The translations under genes were made by a program, and so were the position numbers. Below, in pieces: positions 27,931-60,490 of a DNA stretch of 60,490 bases. The DNA is taken from positions 1 through 60,490 of the IMG/VR virus record IMGVR_UViG_3300035181_000419. One strand, written 5' to 3'. Source of the stretch: a virus (lineage: Duplodnaviria; Caudoviricetes). A model generated the notes under the pieces. It saw only the letters and a program-made list of their open reading frames with translations, was not told the DNA's origin and ran no database searches. Every line of letters begins with the position of its first letter. Position 1 is the first letter of the stretch.

Positions 27931-28476
27931 CTACTCGCCGCCGGGCGCCGCGCCCTCGGCATCTGCTTCTTCCTGAAGCCTCCGCTTCACGAGGTAGGCA
28001 TTGTAGTCAGTCTCCTTACCAGACTGTTTCATCGCCTGATACAGGAAGTCTCGAACCGCGGTCGCTCCATCGTTGTCGCCCTTGGGGGCCTGATCCATAC
28101 CGAGGAACTTGGACCGTCGGTCAGAAATCTTCAGGAGGATGTCAGCGGACTTACTATCCTTGGCCGTGGCCCAATGAATCTTATGGAGCGCGTCCAGGCG
28201 GCTGAGCTCCAGGACCATCACTTCATCAAGCGTCTCCTGAAGCTCCTTGTGCAGAAGCTCCAGGCCCGTCTTCACAAGTTCCCTAGCCATGACGGTGCCA
28301 ATTCCCATGATAGCACCGATTTCCATGTAGTCATGGCCGTCCCGACGGAGCTGCATGGCTTTGAGCACTCGGAGCGAAACTCCCAGGGAGGCTTCGTCCA
28401 CGAACTCAAACACGTCCACATCTGGCGCATCGGGGGGAATTTGCAGGGGCTCCGGTTCTTTCCTAGTCTTCGCCAT
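27931..28476 (-). CDS. terS: Terminase small subunit
   Basis: HTH (G.DY.EIG..MGI), LELSRLDAL, DRRSKFLGMD; upstream of TerL. Confidence 0.8.
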   Translation of the reverse strand: MAKTRKEPEPLQIPPDAPDVDVFEFVDEASLGVSLRVLKAMQLRRDGHDYMEIGAIMGIGTVMARELVKTGLELLHKELQETLDEVMVLELSRLDALHKIHWATAKDSKSADILLKISDRRSKFLGMDQAPKGDNDGATAVRDFLYQAMKQSGKETDYNAYLVKRRLQEEADAEGAAPGGE

Positions 28477-28682: not shown

Positions 28683-28801
28683 TGGTGCGGCGTGAACATT
28701 CCGAACACCAGCATAGATGCACCCCGAGGTGTGCGGAGTATTAGCTCCTCAGTGCTGCGAGACCAGGAGCGCGGAGCCGCCATAATGGCACTGAATGGGC
28801 A

Positions 28802-28895
28802 TATGCTTATATACCTATATACCCGTATGCTTATACACCCACCTTACACATATAATTATATGCACATATGCTTATACACCTACTATGCACATATA
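28802..28895. repeat. AT-rich short repeats
   Basis: TATGCTTATA(T/C)ACC x3; TATGCACATAT x2. Confidence 0.8.
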
Positions 28896-28939
28896 GCTAT
28901 ATAACTACATGCACAGTAAGGCATACTGTAGCCTAAAGC

Positions 28940-28965
28940 AATGCCCAGCGCATAGGCTGGGCATT
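28940..28965 (-). terminator. Hairpin after island gene
   Basis: AATGCCCAGC-N6-GCTGGGCATT. Confidence 0.6.
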
Positions 28966-28983
28966 GGTTGCCTTGCGGCTGTG

Positions 28984-29484
28984 CTAGGCAGGCACGCTAA
29001 GGGTGATTACCTGCTTTTGCCACGCGCACCTAACGTCACCCGCGTTAATGCTAAACCACGCGCCCGTGGCCGGGTGCTGGGCCGCAAGGCCCCGCACCTT
29101 GCACTGGCCGCTGGCCTGGGCCTTGGCCTGCGCGGGCAGGGTGCAGGCCAGCACGGCGCCCACGGTGCAAGGCTGGCCGTTGCTGGCAAGCTGGCCCATG
29201 GCCTGCAAAATGGCGTTGTGCCCGGCGCTGCGCACGCTACCGTTGGCAGGCACGGGCACGGGGCCAGTGGCCACCAGCAAGCCATGCGTGGGCATGGCGC
29301 CCCCGCAGAGCTGGTGCATGAGGGTGGCCTGGGCCTGCCTGCTACTGGCACCCTGCAACGGCGTGCTGGGCGTGGCGGGCACCGGCACGGCGGGCACGGC
29401 GGGCGCCTTAACGGCGGGCGTGGTGGTGGCGGTGGTGGTAGCCTTGGCGGCCTTGGCGGTGGTGGTGGTGGGCTTGGTAGCCAT
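28984..29484 (-). CDS. 166-aa island protein (0 Glu, 1 Asp): T/A/K/P tail plus putative DNA-binding domain paralogous to 41417 and 56100
   Basis: ATG 29484 with AAAGGGG RBS, own promoter and hairpin; TV...D....ITL pattern. Confidence 0.75.
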   Translation of the reverse strand: MATKPTTTTAKAAKATTTATTTPAVKAPAVPAVPVPATPSTPLQGASSRQAQATLMHQLCGGAMPTHGLLVATGPVPVPANGSVRSAGHNAILQAMGQLASNGQPCTVGAVLACTLPAQAKAQASGQCKVRGLAAQHPATGAWFSINAGDVRCAWQKQVITLSVPA

Positions 29485-29531
29485 TGTGTACCCCTTTGGG
29501 TATGGGCCGGGCGGCATTGCCGGGCTTGCAT

Positions 29532-29561
29532 AGTATAAGCATTGCCCATGCCAAAGTGCAA
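29532..29561 (-). promoter_or_regulatory. Promoter of island gene
   Basis: TTGCAC-N18-TATACT. Confidence 0.65.
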
Positions 29562-29724
29562 GGTGCTGTGTTTGCAGCACTTAGCTATATTACCGCCGTG
29601 GCATAGTGCCGCATTGCGGCATAGCATAAAGGCCCGTTTGCCGCTAAGTGTAGCAATAGCATAACTTAACCTGGTGCCGCGTTGGGGCTATGCTATGCCG
29701 CATTGCGGCACCCGCCCACACGGC

Positions 29725-29853
29725 TCGCCCGTAGCAGCTTTCGTGCCAATTCGCCCTTAGCATCTTTCGTGCCAATTCGCCCTAAGCAGCTTTCGTGCCA
29801 ATTCGCCCTAAGCAGCTTTCGTGCCAATTCGCCCTTAGCAGCTTTCGTGCCAA
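29725..29853. repeat. 26-bp tandem repeat, ~5 copies
   Basis: AGCAGCTTTCGTGCCAATTCGCCCT(T/A) at 29733, 29759, 29785, 29811, partial 29837. Confidence 0.95.
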
Positions 29854-34141: not shown

Positions 34142-34888
34142 ATGGATGTGAAATCCGTTACATGCGAGGCCCTTAGGGACATGCTGGCCGACCCCCGGAG
34201 GTGGTCCACCGACGATGACGGCCCCAAGGTGAGTCTCGCCGGAGTTAACCTCTCCAGGATGAATCTCGCAGGAGTGGACCTCAGCAGGGCGGACCTCTCT
34301 GGTGCGGATCTCGCTGGAGCGAACCTCTCCAGGGCGAACCTCTCAGGAGCTAACCTCGTGAGGGCGGACCTTTGCGGGGCGGACCTTTGCGGGTCTAACT
34401 TCTCCAAGGCGAACCTCCTTGGGGCTAACCTCTTTGGGGTGGACCTCTATGGGGCGAACCTCTGCGGGGCGGACCTCTCGGAGGCTAACCTCATCAGGAC
34501 CGACTTCACCAGGGCTGACCTCTCCGATGCGGATCTCTACGGAGCGGATATATCGTGGGCGGACTTCTACAAGACGAACATCACCAGGACGGCCTTCTAC
34601 GGGTCTAAATACTGCGGTATGACGTTTGCGGCGGTCGTCGTCATGGTTGGCCTCTACCGGTATCAGTGCTGGGCTGTCGTCACCACCGACGGCACCCCGT
34701 TCGTTCGCATGGGGTGCCTCTGGCATTCCGTGGCCGAATGGGACGCCATCGGCATCCGCAACAGCAACACCACTGAGTTCCCCGATGACGGCAGCGACAT
34801 CTCCGAGGAACGCGCGGAGGCCTTTGAGCTTATGCGGGCCAAGGCGCTCCGTATGGCTGAGGCACACAGGAAGCTGGGTGGGCTGTAG
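34142..34888 (+). CDS. Pentapeptide-repeat protein with C-terminal domain
   Basis: A(D/N)LxG repeats; C-terminal VRMGC....EW. Confidence 0.9.
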
Positions 34889-36192: not shown

Positions 36193-36249
36193 ATGGCATG
36201 GCAACCGGGCCAGCCCTCGCCCCTAACCGGCCCCACGGAGGAAATCGGA

Positions 36250-36876
36250 ATGAAGCCCTATACACGCAAAGAAATCGAGGCCTTCCAGGCTGACCCCAAA
36301 GGGTGGCTCAGGAAGAATGGCGGCTACAGGGCAGATCTTTCCGAGGTAGACCTCCATGACGCAGACCTCTCAGGTGTGGACCTCACCAGTGCAGACCTCA
36401 CCAACGCGAACCTCAGAGGGACGAACCTCTATGGGGCAAACCTCCGCGGGGTGGACCTCCGCGAGGCGGATCTAGCCGGGTCGGACCTCACCAGGGCCAA
36501 CCTCCATGGAGCGAACCTCTATGGTGCGAACCTATCTATGGTAAACCTCTCCGGATCAAACCTATCCGGGTCAAACCTATCAGGGGCTGACCTAGCCGTG
36601 TCGGATCTCTACGGCGCGGACCTTTATGGTGCAGACCTTACCGGGGCTGACCTTACCGGAGCAGGCCTCGCCGGAGCTGGCCTAACCGGGGCGGATCTCA
36701 CTGAGGCGGACCTAACCGGGGCAGACCTCACCAGGGCTGACCTCACCAGGGCGAATCTCCACGGAACGAACCTCTATGGAGCGAACCTCTATGGAGCGAA
36801 CCTCACAGGAGCGGACCTAACCGGGGCCAACCTCTATGGGGCGAACCTCCCTATGACAGAGCTCACCAGGCTCTAA
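36250..36876 (+). CDS. Pentapeptide-repeat protein
   Basis: ~35 A(D/N)LxG repeats; GGAGG RBS. Confidence 0.9.
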   Translation: MKPYTRKEIEAFQADPKGWLRKNGGYRADLSEVDLHDADLSGVDLTSADLTNANLRGTNLYGANLRGVDLREADLAGSDLTRANLHGANLYGANLSMVNLSGSNLSGSNLSGADLAVSDLYGADLYGADLTGADLTGAGLAGAGLTGADLTEADLTGADLTRADLTRANLHGTNLYGANLYGANLTGADLTGANLYGANLPMTELTRL

Positions 36877-51230: not shown

Positions 51231-53086
51231 ATATTCCTAGCCCATGGGTCCTTGACTTTGAGACTGAGGCCATTGGGGGCAGGCCCGACTATCCACCTGT
51301 TCCTGTGAGCTTCAGCATCCAGAGCCCAAGAGACGAAGCTCAACGGTTCTACGCATGGGGCCACCCCACGGAGAACAACTGCACCTATGATGAGGCTGTC
51401 GCTGTTCTGCATGAGTGCTGGAATAGCGGAGAGCCAATTCTGTTCCACAACATGAAGTTTGATATAGACGTCGCGCAGCATCATATGGGGTGCGGAGACA
51501 TTGAATGGCAGCGCGTTCACGACACTATGTTCCTTCTATTCCTGATGTATCCCCATGCTCGGTTTCTGTCGTTGAAGCCAAGCGCGGAGAAACTTCTGAA
51601 TATGCCCCCTGATGAACAGGAAGCTGTTCGTGATTGGCTAGTCGCTAACGGGGTGTGCAGCGACACGAAGGGGTGGGGAGCGTTCATCTCCAAGGCACCA
51701 GGATCCCTTGTTGGAACTTATGCCGAGGGCGACGTTATCAGGACCAAACTTCTTTTCGAGCTGCTCTACCCGCAGGTGGTGGAAGCTGGAATGCTTCCAG
51801 CCTATGATCGAGAACGTGAGCTCATGTTCGTTCTTCTACAGAATGAACGCGAGGGTGTCCGAGTTGATCTGGAACTTCTGAAGAAAGACCTGGACATTTA
51901 CGAAGCTGCTATGGAAAAAGCAGAGTCTTGGATCCGAGAGCGCTTGGGTGTTCCTGAACTGAACTTGGACGCTGCGGCGCAAGTAGCCAACGCCCTAGAC
52001 GCGAGTGGTGTAGTCACCCAGTGGCATCTCACGAAGACTGGCAAGCGGTCCACCGCCAAAGATAAGATGACCCCCGACATGTTCACAGACGAGCGGGTTA
52101 GTCAGGCGCTGGGCTATCGGAGCCGTCTCTCCACACTACTCGGCACCTTCATGCGAAATTGGCATGATGTTGCCGTGAGGTCAAACGGAATCATCTACAC
52201 TAACTGGAGTCAGGTTCGCCAGCCCGGTTCCGGAGACGGAAGCAAGGGGGCACGAACTGGCCGTATGTCAAGCAGCCCTCCGTTCATGAACATTGCCAAA
52301 GATCTGGAAGAAAAGAGTGACGGGTATGTCCACCCTGAGTTCTTGGATGTTCCAGAACTTCCAGCCATTCGCAAATACATTCTTCCTGACCATCCAGGCG
52401 ATCTCATTCTACACCGAGATTATAGCCAGCAGGAGCTACGAGTGCTGGCGCATATGGAAGATGGCGCCTTCATGGCCGCGTATATCGCGGACCCATCCAT
52501 GGATGTTCATGAATATGTCAGGCAAGAAATCAAGCGCCTGACGGGGGTTGAATACACCCGGTCGCAGGTGAAGCAGGTGAACTTTGGTATCATCTATGGC
52601 ATGGGCTATGGAGCTTTGGCCAAGAAACTTGACAGCACAGTAGATGTCGCCAAGGACATCAAAACCGCCCAGCGAAGGGTTCTTCCGGGGGTGGCGGCTT
52701 TGGAGCGATCAATTAAGAAAATCGGCGGTTCCGGGGGTTTCATCACTACCTGGGGCGGTCGGCGCTACTTCGTGGAGGAGCCCAAGATCGTAAAGGGCGC
52801 GGCAATGTCGTTTGAGTATAAGCTGCTCAACTACCTTATTCAAGGTAGCGCAGCGGATATCACAAAGCAGGCGCTGATCAACTACCACAAAATGAAAAAG
52901 CACGGCCGATTCCTTATCACGGTTCATGACGAAATCAACATCTCCGTGCCTAAAGAATACGCCGATGAGGAAATGGAGATTCTCAAGAAAGCCATGAATT
53001 CCGTGCCACTTGATGTTCCCCTGCTATCTGATGGTAAAATCGGACCTAACTGGGGAAATATGAAGAAGTTCGTGGACAAAGAATAG
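51227..53086 (+). CDS. polA: DNA polymerase family A with 3'-5' exonuclease
   Basis: DFETE, HNMKFD, TGRMSS, DYSQQELR, KQVNFGIIYG, VHDEI. Confidence 0.96.
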   Translation: MNIPSPWVLDFETEAIGGRPDYPPVPVSFSIQSPRDEAQRFYAWGHPTENNCTYDEAVAVLHECWNSGEPILFHNMKFDIDVAQHHMGCGDIEWQRVHDTMFLLFLMYPHARFLSLKPSAEKLLNMPPDEQEAVRDWLVANGVCSDTKGWGAFISKAPGSLVGTYAEGDVIRTKLLFELLYPQVVEAGMLPAYDRERELMFVLLQNEREGVRVDLELLKKDLDIYEAAMEKAESWIRERLGVPELNLDAAAQVANALDASGVVTQWHLTKTGKRSTAKDKMTPDMFTDERVSQALGYRSRLSTLLGTFMRNWHDVAVRSNGIIYTNWSQVRQPGSGDGSKGARTGRMSSSPPFMNIAKDLEEKSDGYVHPEFLDVPELPAIRKYILPDHPGDLILHRDYSQQELRVLAHMEDGAFMAAYIADPSMDVHEYVRQEIKRLTGVEYTRSQVKQVNFGIIYGMGYGALAKKLDSTVDVAKDIKTAQRRVLPGVAALERSIKKIGGSGGFITTWGGRRYFVEEPKIVKGAAMSFEYKLLNYLIQGSAADITKQALINYHKMKKHGRFLITVHDEINISVPKEYADEEMEILKKAMNSVPLDVPLLSDGKIGPNWGNMKKFVDKE

Positions 53087-53120
53087 GGTGTCCGGAAGTA
53101 AGTTCAATTGAAAAGGAGAA

Positions 53121-53795
53121 ATGATGGCCCGAGGAAAAGTAGAACAGATCACAGCATGGTCGTTCTCTCGCTACAAGGCATACGAGGCCTGCCCCTTCAA
53201 AGCAAAGCTGGCTTTCATAGATAAAATGAAAGAGCCGCCCAACCCGGCCATGGATCGTGGCATCAGAATTCATAGCTTGGCTGAGTCCTTCGTCAACGCC
53301 AAGGAAGGCACGCCCTGCCCCCCTGAGCTGGAACTCTTTGAGGAGGATTTCCTAGAGGCTCGTAAAATGCACCCGGAGGTTGAGTGCGAGTGGGCCTTCA
53401 CCAATATCTGGGAACCGACAAGCTGGTTCGGCAAAGATGCGTGGTGCCGGGTCAAGACCGATCTCACCTACACGAATGGTAACGAACTTATCGTCGTGGA
53501 CCATAAGACCGGAAAGCGCAACGAGGACCATAAGGAACAGCTTTCGCTATATGCCTTGGCAGGGTTCATCATTAACCCCGACGTTGATGTCGTTAGGGGC
53601 GCTCTTTGGTATCTGGATCAAGGAGCTCCGATCGTTGATCAAGTCTACGAACGGGGCCAGATGGGGGAACTGGCAGATGCGTGGGAAGAAAAGACACGAC
53701 CCATGCTGAACGACACGATCTTCGCCCCGAAGCCCGGTAATGCCTGCCGCTGGTGCCACTGGAAGAAGAGTAACGGCGGCCCCTGCAAGTTTTAG
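53121..53795 (+). CDS. PD-(D/E)XK exonuclease (Cas4/RecB-like)
   Basis: WSFS..CP, DHKTGK, QLSLY, CRWC...C. Confidence 0.88.
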   Translation: MMARGKVEQITAWSFSRYKAYEACPFKAKLAFIDKMKEPPNPAMDRGIRIHSLAESFVNAKEGTPCPPELELFEEDFLEARKMHPEVECEWAFTNIWEPTSWFGKDAWCRVKTDLTYTNGNELIVVDHKTGKRNEDHKEQLSLYALAGFIINPDVDVVRGALWYLDQGAPIVDQVYERGQMGELADAWEEKTRPMLNDTIFAPKPGNACRWCHWKKSNGGPCKF

Positions 53796-53804
53796 AGGTG
53801 GAAC

Positions 53805-54278
53805 ATGCTGCTACAAAAGATCAACGAAGCTCGCAGTTACCCGTGCTGCGAAGTGATGCAGCCCCCCGGCCACTACCGCGTTGATGTCGCAATCACGCCC
53901 AAGGTCAAGAACCTGCCCCAACCTGTGACAATGCACGTCTATAAGTGTCACAAGTGCTACCGTAAGATGCTGACAGACCATGACTTAAGTATCTTAGAAG
54001 TGAGTGGCGTCCAGAACCCGACAGTGGCGTGGGCTAGGAGCCACGGCATCAGAGCCACTAAGCTCCAAGGTCAGGGTAATCGCTCACTTCCTGACTACGA
54101 GTTTTGGATCAAAGGCGGAAAGCCCAAATTGATGGAGTTCAAGCGCCCCGGAGAACTTCCGACCGCGCTCCAGGAAGACACCATCGCGAAGTTTGCCGCT
54201 GACGGCTACGTGGTTGAGATACACGATGACAAGCACTCCGCCATCGCTTCCCTGCAAAGGTCACTAGATGCTCGTTGA
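53805..54278 (+). CDS. VRR-NUC nuclease with N-terminal Cys domain
   Basis: LPDY...MEFKRPG..PTALQ. Confidence 0.8.
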   Translation: MLLQKINEARSYPCCEVMQPPGHYRVDVAITPKVKNLPQPVTMHVYKCHKCYRKMLTDHDLSILEVSGVQNPTVAWARSHGIRATKLQGQGNRSLPDYEFWIKGGKPKLMEFKRPGELPTALQEDTIAKFAADGYVVEIHDDKHSAIASLQRSLDAR

Positions 54279-55743
54279 AACCGCCCGCCCCGCAGTTCCC
54301 TGGATTCCTCACAACTATCAGAAGAACGTGATGAAGTTCATGCTAGAGAACGCGTCGGCGGGGCTGTTGCTAGACCCCGGCCTTGGGAAGACTTCATGCA
54401 CCTTTGGGACGCTGAAGGTTCTCAAGGCAAAGAGCATGATGAAATCTGCTTTGGTCATCGCACCACTACGAGTCTGCTACGCAGTATGGCCCCGTGAGGC
54501 CGAAAAGTGGAAAGACTTTAATGACATGAAGGTGGTGGTGCTACATGGAAAAGACAAAGAAGCCAATCTCTCAGTTAAAGCAGACATCTATGTCATCAAT
54601 CCGGAAGGGCTGGAATGGCTATTCTCTAATCCACGCTTTAAGAAATTAGCCCCAGATATTTTGGTGATTGATGAGAGTAGCCGGTTCAAGAATACGCAGG
54701 CCAAGAGGTTCAAGGCGCTAAAACCTTGGCTGAAGACATTCCGAAGGCGCTACATTCTGACCGGAACACCTGCCCCCAATGGACTACTGGACCTATTTGG
54801 GCAGATCTATATCCTAGACCTGGGAAAGTCCTTTGGCCCCTACATCACAAAGTTCAAGAACGACTTCTTTTATCCTTCTGGGTTTGGGGGGTTCACTTGG
54901 CGTCCGAAGAATGATACAGCAGAGCGCATCAATGAACTGCTCAAGCCGCTGACCATTCGTCTTGAGGATAAGGACTACCTAGAAATTCCGCAGCTTGTGA
55001 CTAGCCCAGAAACCGACATTATCATTGATCTGCCAGATGATGCTCGGAAAATCTATCATGACCTTGAAAAGGAAATGATAGCCAAACTATCCGAGACCGA
55101 AGTTCTGACAGCGATGAGCGCGGCAACCGCAAGTATGAAGTGCAGGCAGCTCGCGAATGGTTGCGTCTACAGACAACTGGAATACGCGCCCGCTATGAAG
55201 GAGGATAGGTGGCACTATGTCCATGACGAAAAGATTAAGGCGCTTGAAGATTTTGTTAGTGAACTTAATGGGAAACCTCTGCTTGTCGCCTACGAGTTCG
55301 TTCATGACATGGAAAGGATTCGTAAGGCGTTTCCAACTGCGACGTTCGTTGCGGACATCAAGGCATCCAAATTCGCTGATGTTGAGCGTAGATGGAACGC
55401 GGGGGAAATTGAAATGCTGGTGGGGCACCCCGCCTCGATTGGTCACGGGCTCAATCTGCAGGAAAGCGGAAACCACATCCTCTTCTACGGCCCCACCTGG
55501 GATTTGGAGCTATACGACCAGTTCATTAAGCGCATCCTGCGACAAGGCAACAAAAGTTCCCACGTCTTCGTGTATCATATCCTAGCAAGAAATACCGTAG
55601 ATTTCGCTGTGATGCGAGCGCTTCGGGGGAAGGCCAAGGTTCAGAGCAGCCTACTCGAGTCGCTTAAGGACTACGCATCTGAGGTTGAGTTCAATCCAAC
55701 CGGAAGCGAAGCGGCACGTGCGATCATGAAGAATCTAATTTAG
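54268..55743 (+). CDS. SNF2-family helicase
   Basis: DPGLGKT, IDESS, LTGTP, GHGLNLQ, QFIKRILRQG. Confidence 0.93.
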   Translation: MLVETARPAVPWIPHNYQKNVMKFMLENASAGLLLDPGLGKTSCTFGTLKVLKAKSMMKSALVIAPLRVCYAVWPREAEKWKDFNDMKVVVLHGKDKEANLSVKADIYVINPEGLEWLFSNPRFKKLAPDILVIDESSRFKNTQAKRFKALKPWLKTFRRRYILTGTPAPNGLLDLFGQIYILDLGKSFGPYITKFKNDFFYPSGFGGFTWRPKNDTAERINELLKPLTIRLEDKDYLEIPQLVTSPETDIIIDLPDDARKIYHDLEKEMIAKLSETEVLTAMSAATASMKCRQLANGCVYRQLEYAPAMKEDRWHYVHDEKIKALEDFVSELNGKPLLVAYEFVHDMERIRKAFPTATFVADIKASKFADVERRWNAGEIEMLVGHPASIGHGLNLQESGNHILFYGPTWDLELYDQFIKRILRQGNKSSHVFVYHILARNTVDFAVMRALRGKAKVQSSLLESLKDYASEVEFNPTGSEAARAIMKNLI

Positions 55744-56099
55744 CATTTTGTTCCTCACCCCCTTGCGCTTGACCGATGGAAGTGCTACCCTTGGTTTGCG
55801 CTACTTTTCTGAATAGGTCCCAAGTGACTGAAACCTACCAGCTCCGCTGTGATCTACAACGCCACGTCGTGTTACTTGTCGGAACCAGTGGCGATCAATC
55901 CTTTTACATCGCCAAGGAGAAATCTAAGGTTGATGTTCTTAAGACTCGCCGTGCAGCATTTGACAAGGAATACTGCATGGAGATTACTGAGTATTCATTA
56001 GCGGACTTCGCTAACCGAACGCTCAAATTAAAAGAACTAGGGGTGCAAATCACCCCTCGGGCTGCGGCCCATCTCAACACCCTCTCAAAGGAGCCATTC

Positions 56100-56480
56100 A
56101 TGGCCAAGGTCCAGAAGATCCAGGAACCCGCGTCGGACGCCCAGGTCGATCCGGTCACCCCCGCCGCCAAGCCTGCCAAGGAGCCCAAGGCTCCCAAGGA
56201 GCCCAAGGCCCCCAAGCTCAACGAGGACGGCTCCATCATCGAGCCCACGCCGCGCAACCGCCGCGAGAAGATCGATGGCGACCGCAAGATCAAGGTGATT
56301 GGCGCGAACCCCGCGCGGCTCGGGACCACGCGCCATGCCATCGTGGAGTTCATTCTCGGAGCTCGGACCGTGGCGGAGGCTCTGGATAACAGCGTGGTTC
56401 GCAAGGATGGCACCGAATACAAGATCGGTATGCCCGACATCTACTTCGCTCTGGAAAACAATCTGATCGAGCTCATCTAG
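56100..56480 (+). CDS. K/P/E-tailed putative DNA-binding protein (paralogue 3); frame open upstream to GTG 55824
   Basis: AAAGGAG RBS; NPARLGTTRHAI...RTVAEAL...DIYFALENNLIEL. Confidence 0.75.
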   Translation: MAKVQKIQEPASDAQVDPVTPAAKPAKEPKAPKEPKAPKLNEDGSIIEPTPRNRREKIDGDRKIKVIGANPARLGTTRHAIVEFILGARTVAEALDNSVVRKDGTEYKIGMPDIYFALENNLIELI

Positions 56481-56496
56481 TCGTCGGTCGCCATAA

Positions 56497-56535
56497 TTCG
56501 CCCCGTCTGTGGTTTAGTCCATAGCCGGGGCGAAG
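56497..56535 (+). terminator. Hairpin after paralogue 3
   Basis: TTCGCCCCG...CGGGGCGAA. Confidence 0.55.
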
Positions 56536-56551
56536 TTCTCTGGAGTGTCAA

Positions 56552-57508
56552 ATGAAAACTGTGGTGTTCAGTTTCAATCCTCCTACACCCGACGGCTCGT
56601 TGGCAAACGCGCGAACTGCGACTTTTATTGCTGACACGCTCGATGTCCCACTTATTTGTGATAAGAATATCGCAGATGTTGAGGCTGATGTTCTCATTCT
56701 TGTGGCGGGTGTTTTCATGTATTGTCGTTGTCTGCCCGAAGTCGGCGCCGCTGTAGAAAAAGCCAAGCGCGTCGTCTGGGCACAGAATGACTACACCATC
56801 AAGCCCCCGCTTGCGGACGGCATTGCCGAAAGCCCGTTTAGAAAAGCATTCAGGAACCGTAGGTCTGCTGGTCTGCCCGATGTTGATTTCTGGACCACAA
56901 TGAAGAAGGCCTCAGAAAAGACGCCCTTCAGTGCGTGGGTGAACTGGAATCAGATGGCGTATGAAACCCCCATCAGTGACGAAGCTTTTGAGCTGAATCG
57001 TGAGCACGCCATTGAATCATTCATCTACTACGGGGCCGATAGGCTGGGGCGCCGAGACTACTTTGACTGGTATTTCAATGGACAGAAGGCGCCATTGACT
57101 ATCAGTTCCTTTAGTAAGTCAATGTCTCGCTACGAAGATGATGCCGATATCATTCCTGCATTCAAGCGAACTGAGTTCTTTGACCGATTGGGCCAGTATT
57201 CCGCCGGGCTATACCTGGAGGACAAACGCTCGCACGCCGAGTTCACCAGCCCTGCCACGCGGTTCTATGAGATGCTCCGCGTGGGGGTTGCCATGTTCTT
57301 TCAGCCCCAGGCGGTTCCCATGCTGGCGAAGGCTGGGTTCGATGTTGCGCCCTTTGTTGCCACGCCGGGGCAGCTACCAGACGCGCTCAGCAGGGCGCCA
57401 GAGGTGGCTCGCCAGCAACGGGCACTGTGGGGTGGTAGGCCCTACCTTCAGCACCTAAAGGAACAGCTTTTGCGAGAGCACGCACGCATCCAGGAGGGTG
57501 TCAAATGA
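56552..57508 (+). CDS. GT-B glycosyltransferase resembling T4 DNA beta-glucosyltransferase
   Basis: WAQND (cf. BGT YLFTD), FIYYGADRLGRR (cf. VIYGGSFRSGQR), LYLEDK...ATRFYEML (cf. LIIGDK...TLRVWETM); comparison from memory. Confidence 0.72.
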   Translation: MKTVVFSFNPPTPDGSLANARTATFIADTLDVPLICDKNIADVEADVLILVAGVFMYCRCLPEVGAAVEKAKRVVWAQNDYTIKPPLADGIAESPFRKAFRNRRSAGLPDVDFWTTMKKASEKTPFSAWVNWNQMAYETPISDEAFELNREHAIESFIYYGADRLGRRDYFDWYFNGQKAPLTISSFSKSMSRYEDDADIIPAFKRTEFFDRLGQYSAGLYLEDKRSHAEFTSPATRFYEMLRVGVAMFFQPQAVPMLAKAGFDVAPFVATPGQLPDALSRAPEVARQQRALWGGRPYLQHLKEQLLREHARIQEGVK

Positions 57509-58353
57509 GTAATCCTATGCGCGTAGACGACCTGTGCTATTGGATCAAAGAGCGCCATTCCATCTATACCAAGAAGCAGGCTGGGGAGCCAAAGCCTTGG
57601 ACCCAGGACCCAATCTTGCAAAGTTATCGGTTCTGCAATGTCTATCGAAATCTCGATACCGTGACAGAATGGATCCACGCAAACTGGATGAACCGCAGCG
57701 ATCCGAATATGTTCGTGGCTATGGCTATCGCACGGTTCGTGAACTGGCCAGACACCCTTGAAGAAATGGGGTTTCCGTTGCCGTGGGATCCCGAGCATTT
57801 TGTATCGGTCCTACATGATCGCCGGCGCAGGAACGAGAAGGTTTACAGTGGGGCCTACATCGTATCCACTAACGGCCACGCCATGGATAAGGCCGAGTAT
57901 CTCGCCAACTTCGTCATCCAGCCCATCTGGGACAACCGCATTGACGTTCGCCCAAAGAAGGGTGACACTCTTGAGTCCTTCTACCAGCGGCTTGTCAAGT
58001 TCGATGGGCTGGGCAGCTTCATGGCTGGGCAGGTGATAGCTGATCTGAAGTATGACAAGTTCAGCCCACTTTACGAAGCAAGCGATGAATTCAGTTGGGC
58101 GACCAGCGGGCCTGGGAGTCGGCGAGGCATGAACCGTGTCATCCAGCGGCCTCCTGCAGCGCCTATCACTGAGCGGGTGTGGAGGGAGAACCTGACCATC
58201 CTTCACCAAGCCGTTCAGGACAGGCTCGCCCCTTTGGGTATGCCGCCAATCTGCGCCCAGGACCTCCAGAACGCATTATGTGAGTTCGACAAATTCGAGC
58301 GCGTCCGGCTTGGGGAGGGCACCCCGCGCTCCGGATACCCTGGGAGGGGCTGA
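57505..58353 (+). CDS. aGPT-Pplase1-like (5-hmdU hypermodification-associated, glycosylase-like helical) protein
   Basis: ERHSI...PKPWTQDPILQSYRFCNVYRNLD, GLGSFMAGQVIADL, GPGSRRG, QNALCEFDK. Confidence 0.85.
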   Translation: MSNPMRVDDLCYWIKERHSIYTKKQAGEPKPWTQDPILQSYRFCNVYRNLDTVTEWIHANWMNRSDPNMFVAMAIARFVNWPDTLEEMGFPLPWDPEHFVSVLHDRRRRNEKVYSGAYIVSTNGHAMDKAEYLANFVIQPIWDNRIDVRPKKGDTLESFYQRLVKFDGLGSFMAGQVIADLKYDKFSPLYEASDEFSWATSGPGSRRGMNRVIQRPPAAPITERVWRENLTILHQAVQDRLAPLGMPPICAQDLQNALCEFDKFERVRLGEGTPRSGYPGRG

Positions 58354-59345
58354 TGGAATTCCGTGCAAGAAACCTCACGCAGGTGATGGCCGCGTGCCTT
58401 CCTAAACTTGTGGAGGGAACCGCAGAGTCCTCGCGTAACGGGCCGGTGATCTTAATTGACGAACCGGTGATCCTCACTTACGAGAAACCTTGCGAGCGAG
58501 TGCTGTTCTCACCCACACGCGACGCTAACCCATTCTTTCATCTAATGGAAGCTCTATGGATGCTGGCGGGGCGCGACGACGTTGAGTTTCCCACCAGGTT
58601 CAATTCAAAGTTCAGCCAGTTCTCAGATAATGGTGTGACCTTCAATGGAGCCTACGGTTTCAGATGGCGCAAGTATTTTGACACAGATCAGATTGAACTG
58701 GCTGTCAAAGAACTAACGGAGAACCCAGGTTCAAGGCGCGTAGTAATCGGGATGTGGGATCCGATGTGCGATCTTGGATCCACGAGCAAAGACATCCCGT
58801 GCAACACGCACATCTATCTGAGCATCCGGGAGAACTCTGGTCTGCTGGATATGACAGTGTGCAACCGAAGCAACGATGCAATCTGGGGGGCCTTTGGCGC
58901 GAACGCTGTTCACATGAGTATTCTTCAAGAATACCTGGCGGCATCAATTGGCGTGGGCGTTGGGCGCTACCGACAGGTGACAAACAATCTCCACTTCTAC
59001 TCGGATACCTTCAGCGTGGAGAAACTATCACGCATTGCGGATGAGTGTGCATCAGACACGGCGTATTCACTAGGACGTGTCAGTCCTTATCCGCTGATCT
59101 CCATTTCCCCAGGCTGCTGGATGACTGAGCTCCGCGAGTTCCTGGCGAAGCCATCAATGAAGCCTGAGAACTACCACGATGGCTTTTTCGCCGAAGTGGC
59201 GGCCCCCATGTTCGCCGCTTGGGGGGAACGGAAGGCTAATGGGGACACGCATAAAATGAACCAGCTCATAGAAAGCATCGCCGCTTATGACTGGCGCGTG
59301 GCCTGCCGAGAATGGGTTGTCCGTAGGAGTAAGAAAGATGTATAA
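58353..59345 (+). CDS. Thymidylate-synthase homologue, probable dUMP hydroxymethylase
   Basis: RDANPFFH, SRRVV, KDIPCN, RSNDAIWGAFGAN (Asn = dUMP-type), NNLHFY. Confidence 0.85.
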   Translation: MEFRARNLTQVMAACLPKLVEGTAESSRNGPVILIDEPVILTYEKPCERVLFSPTRDANPFFHLMEALWMLAGRDDVEFPTRFNSKFSQFSDNGVTFNGAYGFRWRKYFDTDQIELAVKELTENPGSRRVVIGMWDPMCDLGSTSKDIPCNTHIYLSIRENSGLLDMTVCNRSNDAIWGAFGANAVHMSILQEYLAASIGVGVGRYRQVTNNLHFYSDTFSVEKLSRIADECASDTAYSLGRVSPYPLISISPGCWMTELREFLAKPSMKPENYHDGFFAEVAAPMFAAWGERKANGDTHKMNQLIESIAAYDWRVACREWVVRRSKKDV

Positions 59346-59841
59346 CAGACTGAGGTTCCTTTATGGGGGGCTGGCTACCAAGCGGTTCCACACCCTTCGG
59401 ACTATCCAAGAGAATACCGTCGGCCACCACTCTTGCGGTGTGGCCCTGCTAGTGGCTGAGTTGTCGGAATCAACTCCGCGGGCGGAACTTCTACTCGCGT
59501 GCCTGCGGCACGACCTCGCAGAACACAAGGCTGGCGACTCTCCCGCGCCTGCCAAGCGAGAGGGCGGCTTCGGTGAACTTCTGAATAGTTACGAGGCCAA
59601 ACTCCTAGAAGAGCAGTGGGGGAAGGCGGGCCTGACCAGTGAGGAATTCCGTCTGTTCAAGATCGCTGATTGCTTGGATGGCATCATGTTCTGCATCAGT
59701 GAACGCACCATGGGAAATCGTCATCTTGACGGGGCCTACAAGAATTTCCGTGACTACATCGCGGAACTGCATCCGACCCCTCATGAGAGTTACATCATCG
59801 GGGTCGTATGCGCCCCTTGGAGGGAACTTGTCAATGGATAA
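59338..59841 (+). CDS. HD-domain 5'-deoxynucleotidase (YfbR-like)
   Basis: RFHT...TVGHHS, HDLAE..GD.PAPAK, KIADCLD. Confidence 0.85.
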   Translation: MYNRLRFLYGGLATKRFHTLRTIQENTVGHHSCGVALLVAELSESTPRAELLLACLRHDLAEHKAGDSPAPAKREGGFGELLNSYEAKLLEEQWGKAGLTSEEFRLFKIADCLDGIMFCISERTMGNRHLDGAYKNFRDYIAELHPTPHESYIIGVVCAPWRELVNG

Positions 59842-60058
59842 TGAACCCACAAGAACGGTGTCATTAGCAGAGGCGTTTCCGCTAGAACAACAGCGCATCC
59901 GCGAAATGATAGAAATCTACGGAGAATGTGGCCCTGGCGGTAGACGTATGCAAATCGTCCTGAACGACATCCTGTCCCGTTCAATGCAGGCGGCTGCGAA
60001 TCAAGACGTCGTGGCCATGCTGAAATCCTACTATGAAATGAAGGAGGAACAACTGTGA
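59834..60058 (+). CDS. Hypothetical protein
   Basis: SLAEAFPLEQQRIRE...DVVAML; coupled. Confidence 0.7.
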   Translation: MDNEPTRTVSLAEAFPLEQQRIREMIEIYGECGPGGRRMQIVLNDILSRSMQAAANQDVVAMLKSYYEMKEEQL

Positions 60059-60456
60059 GCAGTCCTAACGAAAGGCAGGTCGGGGGCGGCCACTACAAAT
60101 CTGAGTTTCAGCACTGGGATTTTGTGCTGGGGGTCCTAGGTGGTCGCTATCTTGAAGGATGTCTTACCAAGTATGCGAGCCGTTGGCGAAAGAAAAACGG
60201 CCTGCAAGATCTTGACAAGGCGGAGCATTATCTTGACAAACTTCTTTCCACTGTGGAGGCAAATCAGAATGTCTACAGGGGAACTCCGGACGAAGTCATC
60301 CGACCGGCTGCACGCATGGCTAGGGCGTTTGCCGAAGCCAACGATTTGAACGAACACGAGACTGCCATCATGGTTCGCGTCGCTACGTGGAGCACCACAG
60401 CCGATCTTGAGGCAATTAGGGTCCATATCGCACAGTTGAGGCTTTTGGCTCCATAA
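60055..60456 (+). CDS. DUF3310 (SaV-like) protein
   Basis: QVGGGHYK, QHWD, KYASRWRKKNGLQDLDKAEHY. Confidence 0.88.
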   Translation: MSSPNERQVGGGHYKSEFQHWDFVLGVLGGRYLEGCLTKYASRWRKKNGLQDLDKAEHYLDKLLSTVEANQNVYRGTPDEVIRPAARMARAFAEANDLNEHETAIMVRVATWSTTADLEAIRVHIAQLRLLAP

Positions 60457-60490
60457 ACCAGCCGTTCTGCGGCCTAGAAGTAAACTTTAA
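60244..60490. repeat. Terminal direct repeat copy 2
   Basis: Matches 1-247. Confidence 0.95.

What the first reader, a model, noticed from the sequence alone, without database searches (positions are those of the whole stretch)
56552..60456. Thymine-hypermodification operon pairing a dUMP-type hydroxymethylase with a T4-BGT-like glycosyltransferase: predicted base-J-like phage DNA
Seen: overlapping genes GT-B transferase, aGPT-Pplase1-like, TS homologue, HD nucleotidase, small ORF, DUF3310. The TS homologue has Asn in RSND..WG..GAN (dUMP-specifying; T4 dCMP hydroxymethylase has Asp). The transferase keeps BGT-like motifs including a candidate catalytic Asp80. Established: M6/YuA/ViI-type phages make 5-hmdU and hypermodify it via a P-loop kinase plus amino-acid:DNA transferase, while T4 BGT glucosylates hmC. 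I recognised no such kinase, amino-acid transferase, PLP or radical-SAM gene here. Inference: direct glycosylation of hmU (glucosyl-hmU is kinetoplastid base J) or a further-decorated sugar, probably in TC context.
Basis: partly seen in the sequence, partly recalled or inferred. Interest (0 to 1): 0.88.

Follow-up and report, generated by a model that had tools for sequence, protein, structure and literature searches.

The report
Kinase-free sugar-on-thymine phage DNA operon
An uncultured 60-kb phage carries a tightly coupled six-gene operon that most likely replaces thymine with hydroxymethyluracil and then attaches a sugar to it, a DNA chemistry known from trypanosomes (base J) that I found no report of in any phage.

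Summary
Six translationally coupled genes (56552-60456, +) encode:
- a 318-aa protein of no Pfam or PHROG family, whose confident model is closest to T4 beta-glucosyltransferase (Z 21 against 17 for the next fold);
- a clade-1 aGPT-Pplase with an invariant Cys-Glu pair;
- a thymidylate-synthase homologue with the uracil-type Asn (46% identical to the phage M6 enzyme);
- an HD/YfbR nucleotidase;
- a 74-aa ORF;
- a DUF3310 protein.

The window is a complete phage genome. It has no detectable 5-hmdU DNA kinase, clade-2 amino-acid:DNA transferase, PLP enzyme, radical SAM enzyme or TET/JBP dioxygenase.

The transferase belongs to an uncatalogued family seen here only in phage and metagenome records (635 representative clusters). 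It nearly always sits beside Pplase1 and an Asn-type synthase homologue.

Of 39 related loci, 19 also carry the kinase and 14 a radical SAM/SPASM enzyme. Plain glycosyl-hmU (base-J-like) is therefore the leading product, not a secured one. Pplase1's role is open.

The TC context rests only on a striking GA/TC-free 932-nt island elsewhere in the genome.

This scan has noted the same module type on other DNA (60 notes, at least 57 genomes). Cultured phages with related modules (IME392, EP_H11, PhiJL001) make it testable.

The parts
56552..57508 (+). 318-aa GT-B glycosyltransferase of an uncatalogued phage family, structurally closest to T4 beta-glucosyltransferase. Family-invariant D80, R164, R167, D224, R237 and E240.
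   Evidence: No Pfam, PHROG or NCBIfam hit. AF2 pLDDT 93.9. Foldseek top hits are T4 BGT. VIA Z 21.1 against 17.4 for the next fold. Invariant residues. Mapping onto BGT D100/R191/R195/D258/R269/E272. ESM Atlas lists PF09198 clusters among the nearest.
57505..58353 (+). 282-aa clade-1 aGPT-Pplase (Pfam HMUDK_hel), homologue of M6 gp55. Invariant Cys259-Glu260. Biochemical role unknown.
   Evidence: PF18723 E 2.2e-44. 35% identity to M6 gp55. Invariant columns. AF2 pLDDT 91.4. Best structural match is PaMx11 gp46 (8z2m), Z 10.3, tied with HhH glycosylases.
58353..59345 (+). 330-aa thymidylate-synthase-family enzyme, predicted dUMP hydroxymethylase. Catalytic Cys150; uracil-type Asn184.
   Evidence: PF00303 E 2.4e-18. 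phrog_5131 E 5.5e-112. 45.6% identity to M6 gp58. Asn184 aligns with the Asp of MilA. Below all ThyA equivalog cut-offs.
59338..59841 (+). HD-domain YfbR-like 5'-deoxynucleotidase, homologue of M6 gp59. The longest ORF starts at 59287; the likely start is ATG 59338, behind an AGGAG.
   Evidence: PF12917 E 3.2e-9, PF01966 E 9.1e-5. tblastn to M6 gp59 E 1.7e-8. Junction sequence.
59834..60058 (+). 74-aa ORF of unknown function, translationally coupled on both sides.
   Evidence: ORF list, junctions. No family hit.
60055..60456 (+). 133-aa DUF3310 protein, homologue of M6 gp61. It shares the DUF3310 domain with the T7 gp1.7 nucleotide kinase.
   Evidence: PF11753 E 4.4e-7. phrog_5839 E 1e-29 and phrog_236 'nucleotide kinase' E 1.7e-12. 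42% identity to M6 gp61. T7 gp1.7 carries PF11753 at residues 122-184, E 4.5e-23.

Best explanation
The operon is a thymidine-hypermodification module that works without the usual DNA kinase.

Before replication (inferred by homology):
- The TS homologue makes 5-hydroxymethyl-dUMP from dUMP.
- The HD nucleotidase removes a competing deoxynucleotide, probably dTMP.
- The DUF3310 protein, or host kinases, carry hm-dUMP towards the triphosphate.
- The phage family-A polymerase then puts 5-hmdU in place of T.

After replication (inferred from fold and conserved residues):
- The BGT-like GT-B enzyme flips out 5-hmdU in DNA.
- With Asp80 as base, it transfers a sugar from an NDP-sugar onto the 5-CH2OH group.
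- The product is a glycosyl-hmU, a base-J-like base. The sugar and the sequence context are unknown.

Pplase1 acts on the same 5-substituted uracils by Cys259 attack at C6. Its role is open. It may convert hmU that is left unglycosylated (for example to thymine), or it may rework part of it.

Shown computationally: gene content, coupling, fold, conserved residues, synteny and co-occurrence. Every enzymatic step is inferred.
For: Transferase fold and residues:
- BGT is the closest solved structure by a margin of about 3.5 Z units, over 288-295 of 318 residues.
- Family-invariant D80, R164, R237 and E240 align with BGT D100, R191, R269 and E272 in two MAFFT runs. hhalign independently aligns the R164 and R237-E240 stretch with BGT 179-286.
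- ESM Atlas places PF09198 (T4 glucosyltransferase) clusters among the nearest by features (0.96) and by structure (TM 0.78).

TS homologue:
- Asn184 lies at the position of the cytosine-specifying Asp of MilA.
- 45.6% identity to M6 gp58.
- All 26 full-length TS homologues beside this GT family carry G-[AS]-N there.

Genomic association:
- Of 39 IMG/VR loci, Pplase1 is present in 31, TS in 29 and HD in 25.
- The GT-Pplase1-(P-loop)-TS-HD order recurs in E. coli phage IME392, whose GT is only 24% identical.
- One 634-aa protein fuses the GT to a Pplase1-like domain.
- Cultured phage PhiJL001 pairs Pplase1, TS, HD and DUF3310 with an unrelated 'glucosyl transferase' and no kinase.

Absences in this complete genome: no kinase, AADT, PLP, rSAM or Tet_JBP gene.

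Precedent: T4 BGT itself can glucosylate 5hmU in DNA (PMC4111573; only the start of the abstract seen, in the listing).
Against: - No activity was measured, and neither the sugar donor nor the acceptor is known.
- The GT does not match the BGT Pfam model PF09198 even at E 10. hhalign to BGT is weak (E 0.037, probability 1.4%).
- 19 of 39 related loci have a 5-HMUDK-like kinase, 14 have a radical SAM/SPASM enzyme and 11 have a methyltransferase close to the GT. In relatives the acceptor may therefore be a processed base rather than hmU.
- IME392 and EP_H11 belong to the SP-15/YerA41 polymerase group, where measured modifications are sugars on a linker, not on hmU itself.
- Pplase1's invariant Cys-Glu pair argues that it does chemistry of its own, which this model leaves unexplained.
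- Hydroxymethylase and methylase activity of the TS homologue cannot be told apart from sequence here.
Confidence: 0.45

Rival explanations
1. Linker first, sugar second. Pplase1 uses Cys-Glu chemistry to replace the hydroxyl of 5-hmdU with a hydroxyl-bearing host metabolite. The GT then glycosylates that appended group. The result is a small version of the SP-15/YerA41/Carin-5 type of sugar-on-linker thymidine.
For: - Pplase1 has the invariant Cys259-Glu260 pair. Lee et al. 2021 found this pair essential in clade-2 transferases (passages).
- The same GT family occurs in IME392 and EP_H11. The Delarue group places these phages with phages whose T carries linker-phosphate-sugar chains, and notes that they have Pplase1 but no detectable kinase (passages).
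- GT and Pplase1 are adjacent and translationally coupled, and are fused in P0122.
Against: - There is no kinase to activate hmU in this genome. All characterised group transfers start from 5-PmdU.
- The window has no sugar-nucleotide, deacetylase or second-GT genes of the kind seen in IME392 or Carin-5.
- The fused Pplase1-like domain of P0122 matches only the N-terminal part of the Pplase1 profile well. Reading its printed sequence by eye, I saw no Cys-Glu motif; no alignment of that region was made.
Confidence: 0.2
2. Sugar as leaving group. In this kinase-free clade the GT takes over the activating role of the 5-hmdU DNA kinase. Glycosyl-hmU is then a transient intermediate. Pplase1 resolves it through the exocyclic methylene, into thymine or another small adduct.
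For: - In the window the GT sits immediately upstream of the M6 gp55 homologue, where M6 has the gp51-gp54 block that includes the kinase.
- The window's nine nearest loci (L004-L012) all lack the kinase.
- How 5-hmdU is converted to thymidine in these phages is stated to be unknown (Lee 2018, passage).
- Pplase1 is the conserved enzyme without an assigned role.
Against: - 19 of 39 loci have both the kinase and the GT, so the GT is not simply a substitute for the kinase.
- A glycoside is a poor leaving group compared with phosphate (general chemistry, my own knowledge).
- No reductant-binding domain is evident in Pplase1.
Confidence: 0.12
3. The transferase does not act on DNA. It glycosylates a protein, a lipid, a nucleotide or a host envelope component, and its position in the operon is incidental.
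For: - GT-B enzymes with Z 15-17 to the model act on many acceptors, such as SenB, PimA, Gtf3 and BshA.
Against: - The closest fold is the DNA enzyme BGT, with T4 AGT also high in the list.
- The family appeared only in viral and metagenome records: 0 loci in 185,579 species genomes, and its nearest ESM Atlas clusters are 95-100% viral.
- It is embedded in nucleotide and replication genes with Asn-type TS and Pplase1, and fused to a Pplase1-like domain.
Confidence: 0.05
4. T4-like pathway. The TS homologue is a dCMP hydroxymethylase and the GT glucosylates hydroxymethylcytosine.
For: - The best solved sequence match of the TS homologue is a CMP hydroxymethylase, MilA, E 2.4e-21.
- Weak partial GT matches occur in T4-like Cronobacter and Citrobacter phages.
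Against: - Asn184, not Asp, lies at the specificity position, as in all 26 associated homologues.
- 45.6% identity to the M6 enzyme, whose phage builds its hypermodified T from 5-hmdU.
- Pplase1, HD and DUF3310 are shared with hmU phages.
- No dCTPase was recognised in the 29 window ORFs scanned.
Confidence: 0.02

Closest known systems
T4 beta-glucosyltransferase (BGT; Pfam PF09198; PDB 1BGT, 1C3J, 1J39, 1NZD)
   Same: - Same GT-B fold; it is the best structural match (Z 20.4-21.1, 288-295 residues aligned).
- Asp80, Arg164, Arg237 and Glu240 align with BGT Asp100, Arg191, Arg269 and Glu272.
- Both genes lie next to a TS-family hydroxymethylase gene.
   Different: - 9-13% sequence identity.
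- No match to PF09198 even at E 10.
- Paired with an Asn-type (dUMP) rather than an Asp-type (dCMP) hydroxymethylase, and with Pplase1, which the T4 region I looked at does not show.
Thymidine hypermodification clusters of phages M6/YuA, PaMx11, ViI, PhiW-14, SP10 and SH-Ab 15599 (Lee 2018, Lee 2021, Li 2026)
   Same: - Homologous TS (46%), Pplase1 (35%), HD and DUF3310 genes, in the same order as M6 gp55, gp58, gp59 and gp61.
- The same logic: 5-hmdU is incorporated first and modified after replication.
   Different: - No 5-HMUDK (PF18748), no clade-2 Pplase/AADT, no PLP, rSAM or FAD enzyme.
- A BGT-like GT lies immediately upstream of Pplase1, where M6 has the gp51-gp54 block.
Base J pathway of kinetoplastids (JBP1/2 thymidine hydroxylases plus the JGT glucosyltransferase)
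   Same: The predicted end product class is a glycosyl-hydroxymethyluracil in DNA.
   Different: - hmU would be made before replication by a TS homologue. No Tet_JBP domain is present in the genome.
- The transferase is GT-B/BGT-like, whereas Pyle et al. relate JGT to the GT-A phage enzymes (passage).
- It would work like the J pathway without being a member of it.
SP-15 / YerA41 / Carin-5 group, with E. coli phages vB_EcoM_IME392 and EP_H11
   Same: - IME392 and EP_H11 carry a full-length homologue of this GT (24% identity; profile E 1e-38), followed by Pplase1, a P-loop protein, TS and HD.
- The literature notes Pplase1 without a detectable 5-HMUDK in these phages.
   Different: - They are 111-116 kb phages (IME392 carries vB_EcoM, the myovirus code, in its name) with UDG-fused polymerases.
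- IME392 has extra genes beside the GT: a PIG-L deacetylase, a BCCT transporter and a methyltransferase.
- The modifications measured in that group are sugar chains on a phosphorylated linker.
Alphaproteobacteria phage PhiJL001 (Keylargovirus, Mesyanzhinovviridae)
   Same: Cultured phage with Pplase1 (profile E 2.8e-90), TS (3.6e-125), HD and DUF3310 in the same order, plus a 'glucosyl transferase' and no kinase hit.
   Different: - Its glycosyltransferase does not match the profile of this GT family at E 0.01.
- Its DNA chemistry was not found in the papers I could search.

Membership tests
T4 beta-glucosyltransferase family (Pfam PF09198, T4-Gluco-transf) | Significant match to the family's sequence profile | tested here: not met
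   No Pfam family at E 0.01. No PF09198 match in the whole genome at E 10. hhalign to the T4 BGT sequence gives E 0.037, probability 1.4%.
T4 beta-glucosyltransferase family (Pfam PF09198, T4-Gluco-transf) | GT-B fold with BGT as the nearest structure | tested here: met
   AF2 pLDDT 93.9. Foldseek ranks 1-6 are BGT entries, E 5.4e-9 to 4.8e-7. VIA Z 20.4-21.1, against 17.4 for the next fold.
T4 beta-glucosyltransferase family (Pfam PF09198, T4-Gluco-transf) | Catalytic Asp100 and the UDP-contacting Arg191/Arg195/Arg269/Glu272 (the roles of these residues are recalled from the BGT structural literature) | tested here: met
   Invariant D80, R164, R167, R237 and E240 fall on these BGT residues in MAFFT alignments. 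R167 aligns with R195 only in the L-INS-i run. These are alignments at about 12% identity, so this is residue-level inference.
T4 beta-glucosyltransferase family (Pfam PF09198, T4-Gluco-transf) | Transfer of glucose from UDP-glucose to 5-hydroxymethylcytosine in DNA | not testable with these tools
   Needs an enzyme assay.
aGPT-Pplase clade 1 (Pfam PF18723, HMUDK_hel) | Profile match above the curated cut-off | tested here: met
   152.4 bits against a cut-off of 25. 151.7 bits in the genome search. 35% identity to M6 gp55.
aGPT-Pplase clade 1 (Pfam PF18723, HMUDK_hel) | Conserved Cys with a neighbouring Glu (shown to be essential in clade 2 by Lee 2021) | tested here: met
   C259 and E260 are invariant in 19 sequences. 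Their catalytic role in clade 1 is untested.
Kinase-dependent thymidine hypermodification pathway (5-HMUDK plus clade-2 Pplase/AADT) | 5-hmdU DNA kinase (PF18748) | tested here: not met
   - No PF18748 match in the complete genome at E 1.
- No tblastn or phmmer hit with M6 gp54.
- No hit with a profile of 10 kinase homologues from related loci.
- The only Walker A motif in a long ORF is in the large terminase.
Kinase-dependent thymidine hypermodification pathway (5-HMUDK plus clade-2 Pplase/AADT) | Clade-2 aGPT-Pplase (amino-acid or diamine:DNA transferase) | tested here: not met
   M6 gp51 finds nothing in the window by tblastn at E 0.01. The best phmmer E is 0.26.
Kinase-dependent thymidine hypermodification pathway (5-HMUDK plus clade-2 Pplase/AADT) | TS-family dUMP hydroxymethylase supplying 5-hmdU | tested here: met
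   45.6% identity to M6 gp58. Cys150 and Asn184 are present. Below the ThyA equivalog cut-offs. The activity itself is inferred.
Base J pathway (JBP/TET hydroxylase plus JGT) | Tet_JBP dioxygenase that makes hmU from T in DNA | tested here: not met
   No PF12851 match in the genome at E 1.
Base J pathway (JBP/TET hydroxylase plus JGT) | JGT-type (GT-A-like) glucosyltransferase | tested here: inconclusive
   The model is GT-B. Pyle et al. relate JGT to the GT-A phage enzymes. No JGT sequence or structure was compared directly.

The most novel reading that the evidence does not exclude
Packaged DNA of this phage carries a stable glycosyl-5-hydroxymethyluracil, that is base J or a close analogue. 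It would be made by a pre-replicative TS-type route plus a BGT-like transferase, without any DNA kinase or dioxygenase, and placed at T in TC context. The 932-nt GA/TC-free island would then be a deliberately unmodified stretch. Pplase1 would be the long-sought enzyme that turns the remaining 5-hmdU into thymine.
Probability: 0.25. Interest if true: 0.85.

Novelty: new variant of a known kind. Interest (0 to 1): 0.7.

Why it matters
- Every thymidine hypermodification pathway reconstituted in the papers I read starts with a 5-hmdU DNA kinase and a clade-2 Pplase. This genome has neither. It pairs the uncharacterised clade-1 Pplase with a DNA-type glycosyltransferase of a family that no library names.
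- If the product is glycosyl-hmU, base J chemistry would exist outside eukaryotes and would arise by an unrelated route.
- The minimal gene set (GT, Pplase1, TS, HD, DUF3310) is a clean system for assigning a function to Pplase1. It also bears on the open question of how these phages turn 5-hmdU back into thymine.
- The family is large (635 representative clusters).
- It is tied to cultured phages, so the prediction can be tested directly.
- New DNA glycosyltransferases are also useful reagents for mapping 5hmU.

Tried and rejected
- **Sequence searches of the GT against solved structures:** a profile of 27 sequences gave 3 hits, best E 0.22, none meaningful.
- **hhalign in global mode against BGT:** it returned a nonsense 6-residue alignment and was discarded.
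- **Pplase1 against PDB sequences:** 0 hits at E 10. Foldseek gave no match at E 0.001. The VIA Z of 10.3 to PaMx11 gp46 is tied with DUF2419 (10.0) and OGG (9.9). For a helical protein this is only a shared HhH-glycosylase-like fold.
- **Complex prediction of GT with Pplase1 (alignments A1 and A3):** 'no answer', score 0.00 against a mark of 0.32. This gives no information either way.
- **The look-up of encoding contigs:** I used the search for related loci instead, as the tool's message advised.
- **Iyer et al. 2013 (PMC3763556):** not held. What I say of it comes from citations in Lee 2018 and Lee 2021, or from recall.
- **Kropinski 2018:** no passage on Pplase or a kinase.
- **DNA-level search of the operon against phages:** only short TS matches, at most 5% coverage, in 22 records.
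- **Genome-contig scan:** 5 pattern matches, 0 confirmed.
- **Promoter and terminator scan of 53000-60490:** 3 and 6 sites, no more than in shuffles.
- **Dinucleotide-free islands elsewhere:** I looked in the first 49.2 kb of M6 and in six related loci, asking whether such islands are a general mark of T-hypermodifying phages. None was found. The link between the island and the modification therefore stays speculative.
- **Bordetella phage MW2:** it turned out to be an ordinary M6-type cluster.
- **Sequencing runs:** 4 metagenome runs (sediment, microbial mat), all kept as contigs, and no RNA holder listed. Read laying was not used, because contigs cannot show base modifications.
- **Literature:** I found no report of a sugar directly on 5-hmdU in phage DNA, or of a function for clade-1 Pplase, in searches. 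Subscription papers and supplementary files were not visible. The supplements of Lee 2021 and Pyle 2023/2024, which list contigs and gene families, could bear on whether this family was already catalogued.
- **Census caveats:** 39 of 39 loci were counted, but many are cut by contig ends, so absences in single loci are weak. One of the 14 radical SAM hits is weak (L026, E 2.5e-6).

Full report
**What is there.**
The window is a whole IMG/VR virus record of 60,490 bases, rated 100% complete by CheckV. Structural genes lie on the minus strand, and early and replication genes on the plus strand. The plus-strand genes include a primase-helicase, a ligase, a family-A polymerase, a PD-(D/E)XK nuclease and an SNF2 helicase.

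Its nearest GenBank relatives are uncultured spring-water phages (TerL 55% identical). More distant are siphoviruses (vB_..S-type names) of Stenotrophomonas and Pseudomonas, and a Pseudoxanthomonas phage.

At 56552-60456 six plus-strand genes follow one another, with start and stop codons overlapping by 1 to 8 nt. Each start sits behind a purine-rich ribosome-binding site. They form one translationally coupled operon.

**The transferase.**
- The 318-aa product of 56552-57508 matches no Pfam, PHROG or NCBIfam model.
- It has 37 relatives in the 90%-cluster database. None carries a Pfam domain or an informative name.
- It has 635 relatives among the 50%-identity representatives at E 0.001, of which 321 are at 1e-30.
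- With an alignment of 27 members, AlphaFold2 gives pLDDT 93.9 and pTM 0.90.
- Foldseek's six best PDB matches are all T4 beta-glucosyltransferase (E 5.4e-9 to 4.8e-7), followed by T4 alpha-glucosyltransferase and other GT-B enzymes.
- VIA-align gives Z 20.4-21.1 (288-295 residues, rmsd 3.5-3.7) for four BGT entries, against 17.4 for the next protein, SenB.
- ESM Atlas independently lists clusters carrying PF09198 (T4-Gluco-transf) among the nearest, by features (0.96) and by structure (TM 0.78).
- The family-invariant residues D80, R164, D224, R237 and E240 fall on BGT D100, R191, D258, R269 and E272 in two MAFFT runs. R167 falls on R195 in one of them.
- hhalign aligns the R164 and R237-E240 stretch with BGT 179-286, but weakly (E 0.037).
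- That D100 is the catalytic base and that these Arg/Glu residues hold UDP is recalled from the BGT structural papers. The only trace in my calls is the PDB title 'BGT-D100A mutant'.
- By Pfam's criterion the protein is not a BGT family member: there is no PF09198 match even at E 10. It is a separate family with the BGT fold and active-site layout.

**The synthase homologue.**
- The 330-aa product of 58353-59345 is 45.6% identical to M6 gp58.
- It matches phrog_5131 at 5.5e-112.
- It stays far below every NCBIfam cut-off for true thymidylate synthases (best 82.9 bits against 174.55).
- Its best solved relative is the CMP hydroxymethylase MilA (E 2.4e-21). In that HMMER alignment, Asn184 of RSNDAIWGAFGAN lies opposite MilA's Asp.
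- MAFFT against T4 gp42 is one residue out of register there, because of an indel.
- All 26 full-length synthase homologues next to this transferase family carry G-[AS]-N at this place.
- That Asn specifies uracil and Asp specifies cytosine in this superfamily is recalled knowledge.
- A dUMP hydroxymethylase is thus the reasonable reading. Methylase against hydroxymethylase activity cannot be decided from sequence.

**Pplase1.**
- The 282-aa product of 57505-58353 is a clear clade-1 aGPT-Pplase: PF18723 at 152 bits, and 35% identical to M6 gp55.
- Lee et al. 2021 (passages read) showed that the clade-2 paralogue is the amino-acid:DNA transferase. It works through an essential Cys and a neighbouring Glu.
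- The same paper showed that gp55 was not needed to make the M6 intermediate. No function is given for clade 1.
- In 19 clade-1 sequences from this window and related loci, Cys259 and Glu260 are invariant.
- The model (pLDDT 91.4) has PaMx11 gp46 as its top structural match. That match is only tied with HhH glycosylases and DUF2419.
- I infer an active enzyme that attacks C6 of a 5-substituted uracil in DNA. What it does is open.

**The rest of the operon.**
- The HD protein is YfbR-like.
- The DUF3310 protein is 42% identical to M6 gp61. It shares its domain with the C-terminal part of the T7 gp1.7 nucleotide kinase.
- Their roles in pool control and in phosphorylating hm-dUMP are inferences.

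**What is missing.**
- Of 17 M6 proteins, only gp55, gp58, gp59, gp61 and the polymerase find a partner in the window.
- The kinase gp54, the transferase gp51, and the PLP and radical SAM enzymes do not.
- A profile of ten kinase homologues from related loci finds nothing.
- PF18748 finds nothing at E 1.
- The only Walker A motif in a long ORF is in the large terminase.
- No Tet_JBP domain is present.

**Relatives and context.** In 39 IMG/VR loci that encode the transferase family, profile searches gave these counts:

| Gene | Loci (of 39) |
|---|---|
| Pplase1 | 31 |
| Synthase homologue | 29 |
| HD | 25 |
| DUF3310 | 16 |
| M6-gp54-like kinase, all with Walker A | 19 |
| Radical SAM/SPASM enzyme, usually directly after the transferase | 14 (13 strong) |
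| SAM methyltransferase | 11 |

- Many loci are cut by contig ends, so absences in single loci are weak.
- tblastn with the M6 clade-2 transferase (gp51) and PLP enzyme (gp52) found nothing in any locus.
- The nine loci closest to the window (L004-L012) all lack the kinase.
- One 634-aa representative fuses the transferase to a Pplase1-like domain (PF18723, 35 bits). That domain matches only the N-terminal part of the Pplase1 profile well. By eye, I saw no Cys-Glu motif in its printed sequence.
- No relative was found in 185,579 species genomes.

**Cultured phages with related modules.**
- E. coli phages IME392 and EP_H11 have a full-length homologue (24% identical; profile E 1e-38), followed by Pplase1, a P-loop protein, the synthase homologue and HD. 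In IME392 a PIG-L deacetylase and a BCCT transporter lie beside it.
- Papers from the Delarue group (passages) place these phages with SP-15, YerA41 and Carin-5, whose thymidines carry sugars on a phosphorylated linker. They note Pplase1 without a detectable kinase.
- PhiJL001 and the Microbacterium phage Carostasia pair Pplase1 with glycosyltransferases that do not match this family's profile.
- The partnership of Pplase1 with a sugar transferase therefore recurs with different transferases.

**Reading.**
- *Best supported:* 5-hmdU replaces T during replication, and this transferase then puts a sugar on the hydroxymethyl group in DNA, with Pplase1 acting on the same bases. I give direct glycosylation 0.45.
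- *Rival, linker first (0.2):* Pplase1 first installs a hydroxyl-bearing group, which is then glycosylated.
- *Rival, leaving group (0.12):* the sugar is a leaving group that stands in for phosphate.
- *Against the best reading:* the kinase and radical SAM variants among relatives, and the linker-type chemistry of the IME392 group.
- *For it:* the window's minimal gene set, and the known ability of T4 BGT to glucosylate 5hmU (PMC4111573; only the start of the abstract seen, in the listing).
- A T4-like hmC route (0.02) and a non-DNA acceptor (0.05) are unlikely.

**TC context.**
The finding's guess rests on something outside its coordinates.
- 28794-29725 holds 4 GA/TC dinucleotides where 122 are expected. 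It contains free runs of 212, 272 and 405 nt.
- The longest free run elsewhere is 58 nt, and GA/TC is not depleted genome-wide (observed/expected 1.06).
- Within the island, T is followed by G 165 times, by A 122 times, by T 69 times and by C 4 times (both strands counted).
- The island is real and striking. Nothing links it to this operon, and the first 49.2 kb of M6 show no such island.

**Novelty.**
- I found no paper reporting a sugar directly on 5-hmdU in phage DNA, or a function for clade-1 Pplase. Supplements and subscription papers were not visible.
- Pyle et al. (passages) report that GT-B-like phage transferases often sit near thymidylate-synthase homologues. The broad association is therefore in print. 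The Asn-type, Pplase1-linked, kinase-free version is not, as far as I could see.
- This scan has already noted the same module type on other DNA (60 notes in at least 57 genomes). Those notes are unchecked leads that agree with my reading.

Noticed in passing
window 28794-29725: A 932-nt island with 4 GA/TC dinucleotides where about 122 are expected. It has free runs of 212, 272 and 405 nt, against a maximum of 58 nt elsewhere. GA/TC is not depleted genome-wide (O/E 1.06). The island covers a minus-strand ORF (28984-29580, with a Thr/Ala/Pro-rich N-terminal part and very few Asp or Glu) just upstream of the ORF next to the large terminase (27931-28476, probably terS; not scanned). No such island occurs in the first 49.2 kb of phage M6.
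   Followed up: partly
window 34142-34888 and 36193-36876: Two pentapeptide-repeat proteins (PF00805, E 2.4e-52 and 6.6e-61) among the early genes. They are possible DNA mimics.
   Followed up: no
L012, L015, L016, L018-L024, L028, L036, L041 (IMG/VR loci): In relatives, a radical SAM/SPASM enzyme lies directly beside the transferase. It is often accompanied by an M6-gp54-like 5-hmdU DNA kinase and a SAM methyltransferase. This implies more elaborate, uncharacterised thymidine modifications built around the same transferase family.
   Followed up: partly
protein P0122 (634 aa, metagenome representative): A natural fusion of the transferase (residues 13-318) with a Pplase1-like domain (PF18723, 35 bits, residues 347-599). 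That domain matches only the N-terminal part of the Pplase1 profile well. By eye, I saw no Cys-Glu motif in its printed sequence.
   Followed up: partly
L002 (E. coli phage vB_EcoM_IME392) 3078-12616: The transferase homologue sits in a block of methyltransferase-like gene, unknown gene, BCCT transporter, PIG-L GlcNAc deacetylase, unknown 344-aa gene, GT, Pplase1, AAA_28 P-loop protein, TS and HD. The deacetylase hints at an amino-sugar on the DNA.
   Followed up: partly
L049 (phage PhiJL001) 5995-10837: A cultured marine phage with Pplase1, a 'glucosyl transferase' of another family, TS, HD and DUF3310 in the same order, and no kinase hit. It is a ready test case for kinase-free Pplase1-plus-GT modules.
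   Followed up: partly
window 56039-56387: A 349-nt run without TA inside the 234-aa gene just upstream of the operon. TA is depleted genome-wide (O/E 0.71), so this is less remarkable than the GA/TC island.
   Followed up: no
window 56502-56533: An inverted repeat, GCCCCG...CGGGGC, in the 71-nt gap before the transferase gene, with no T-run after it. It is a possible RNA hairpin or protein site. The terminator scan did not list it.
   Followed up: no
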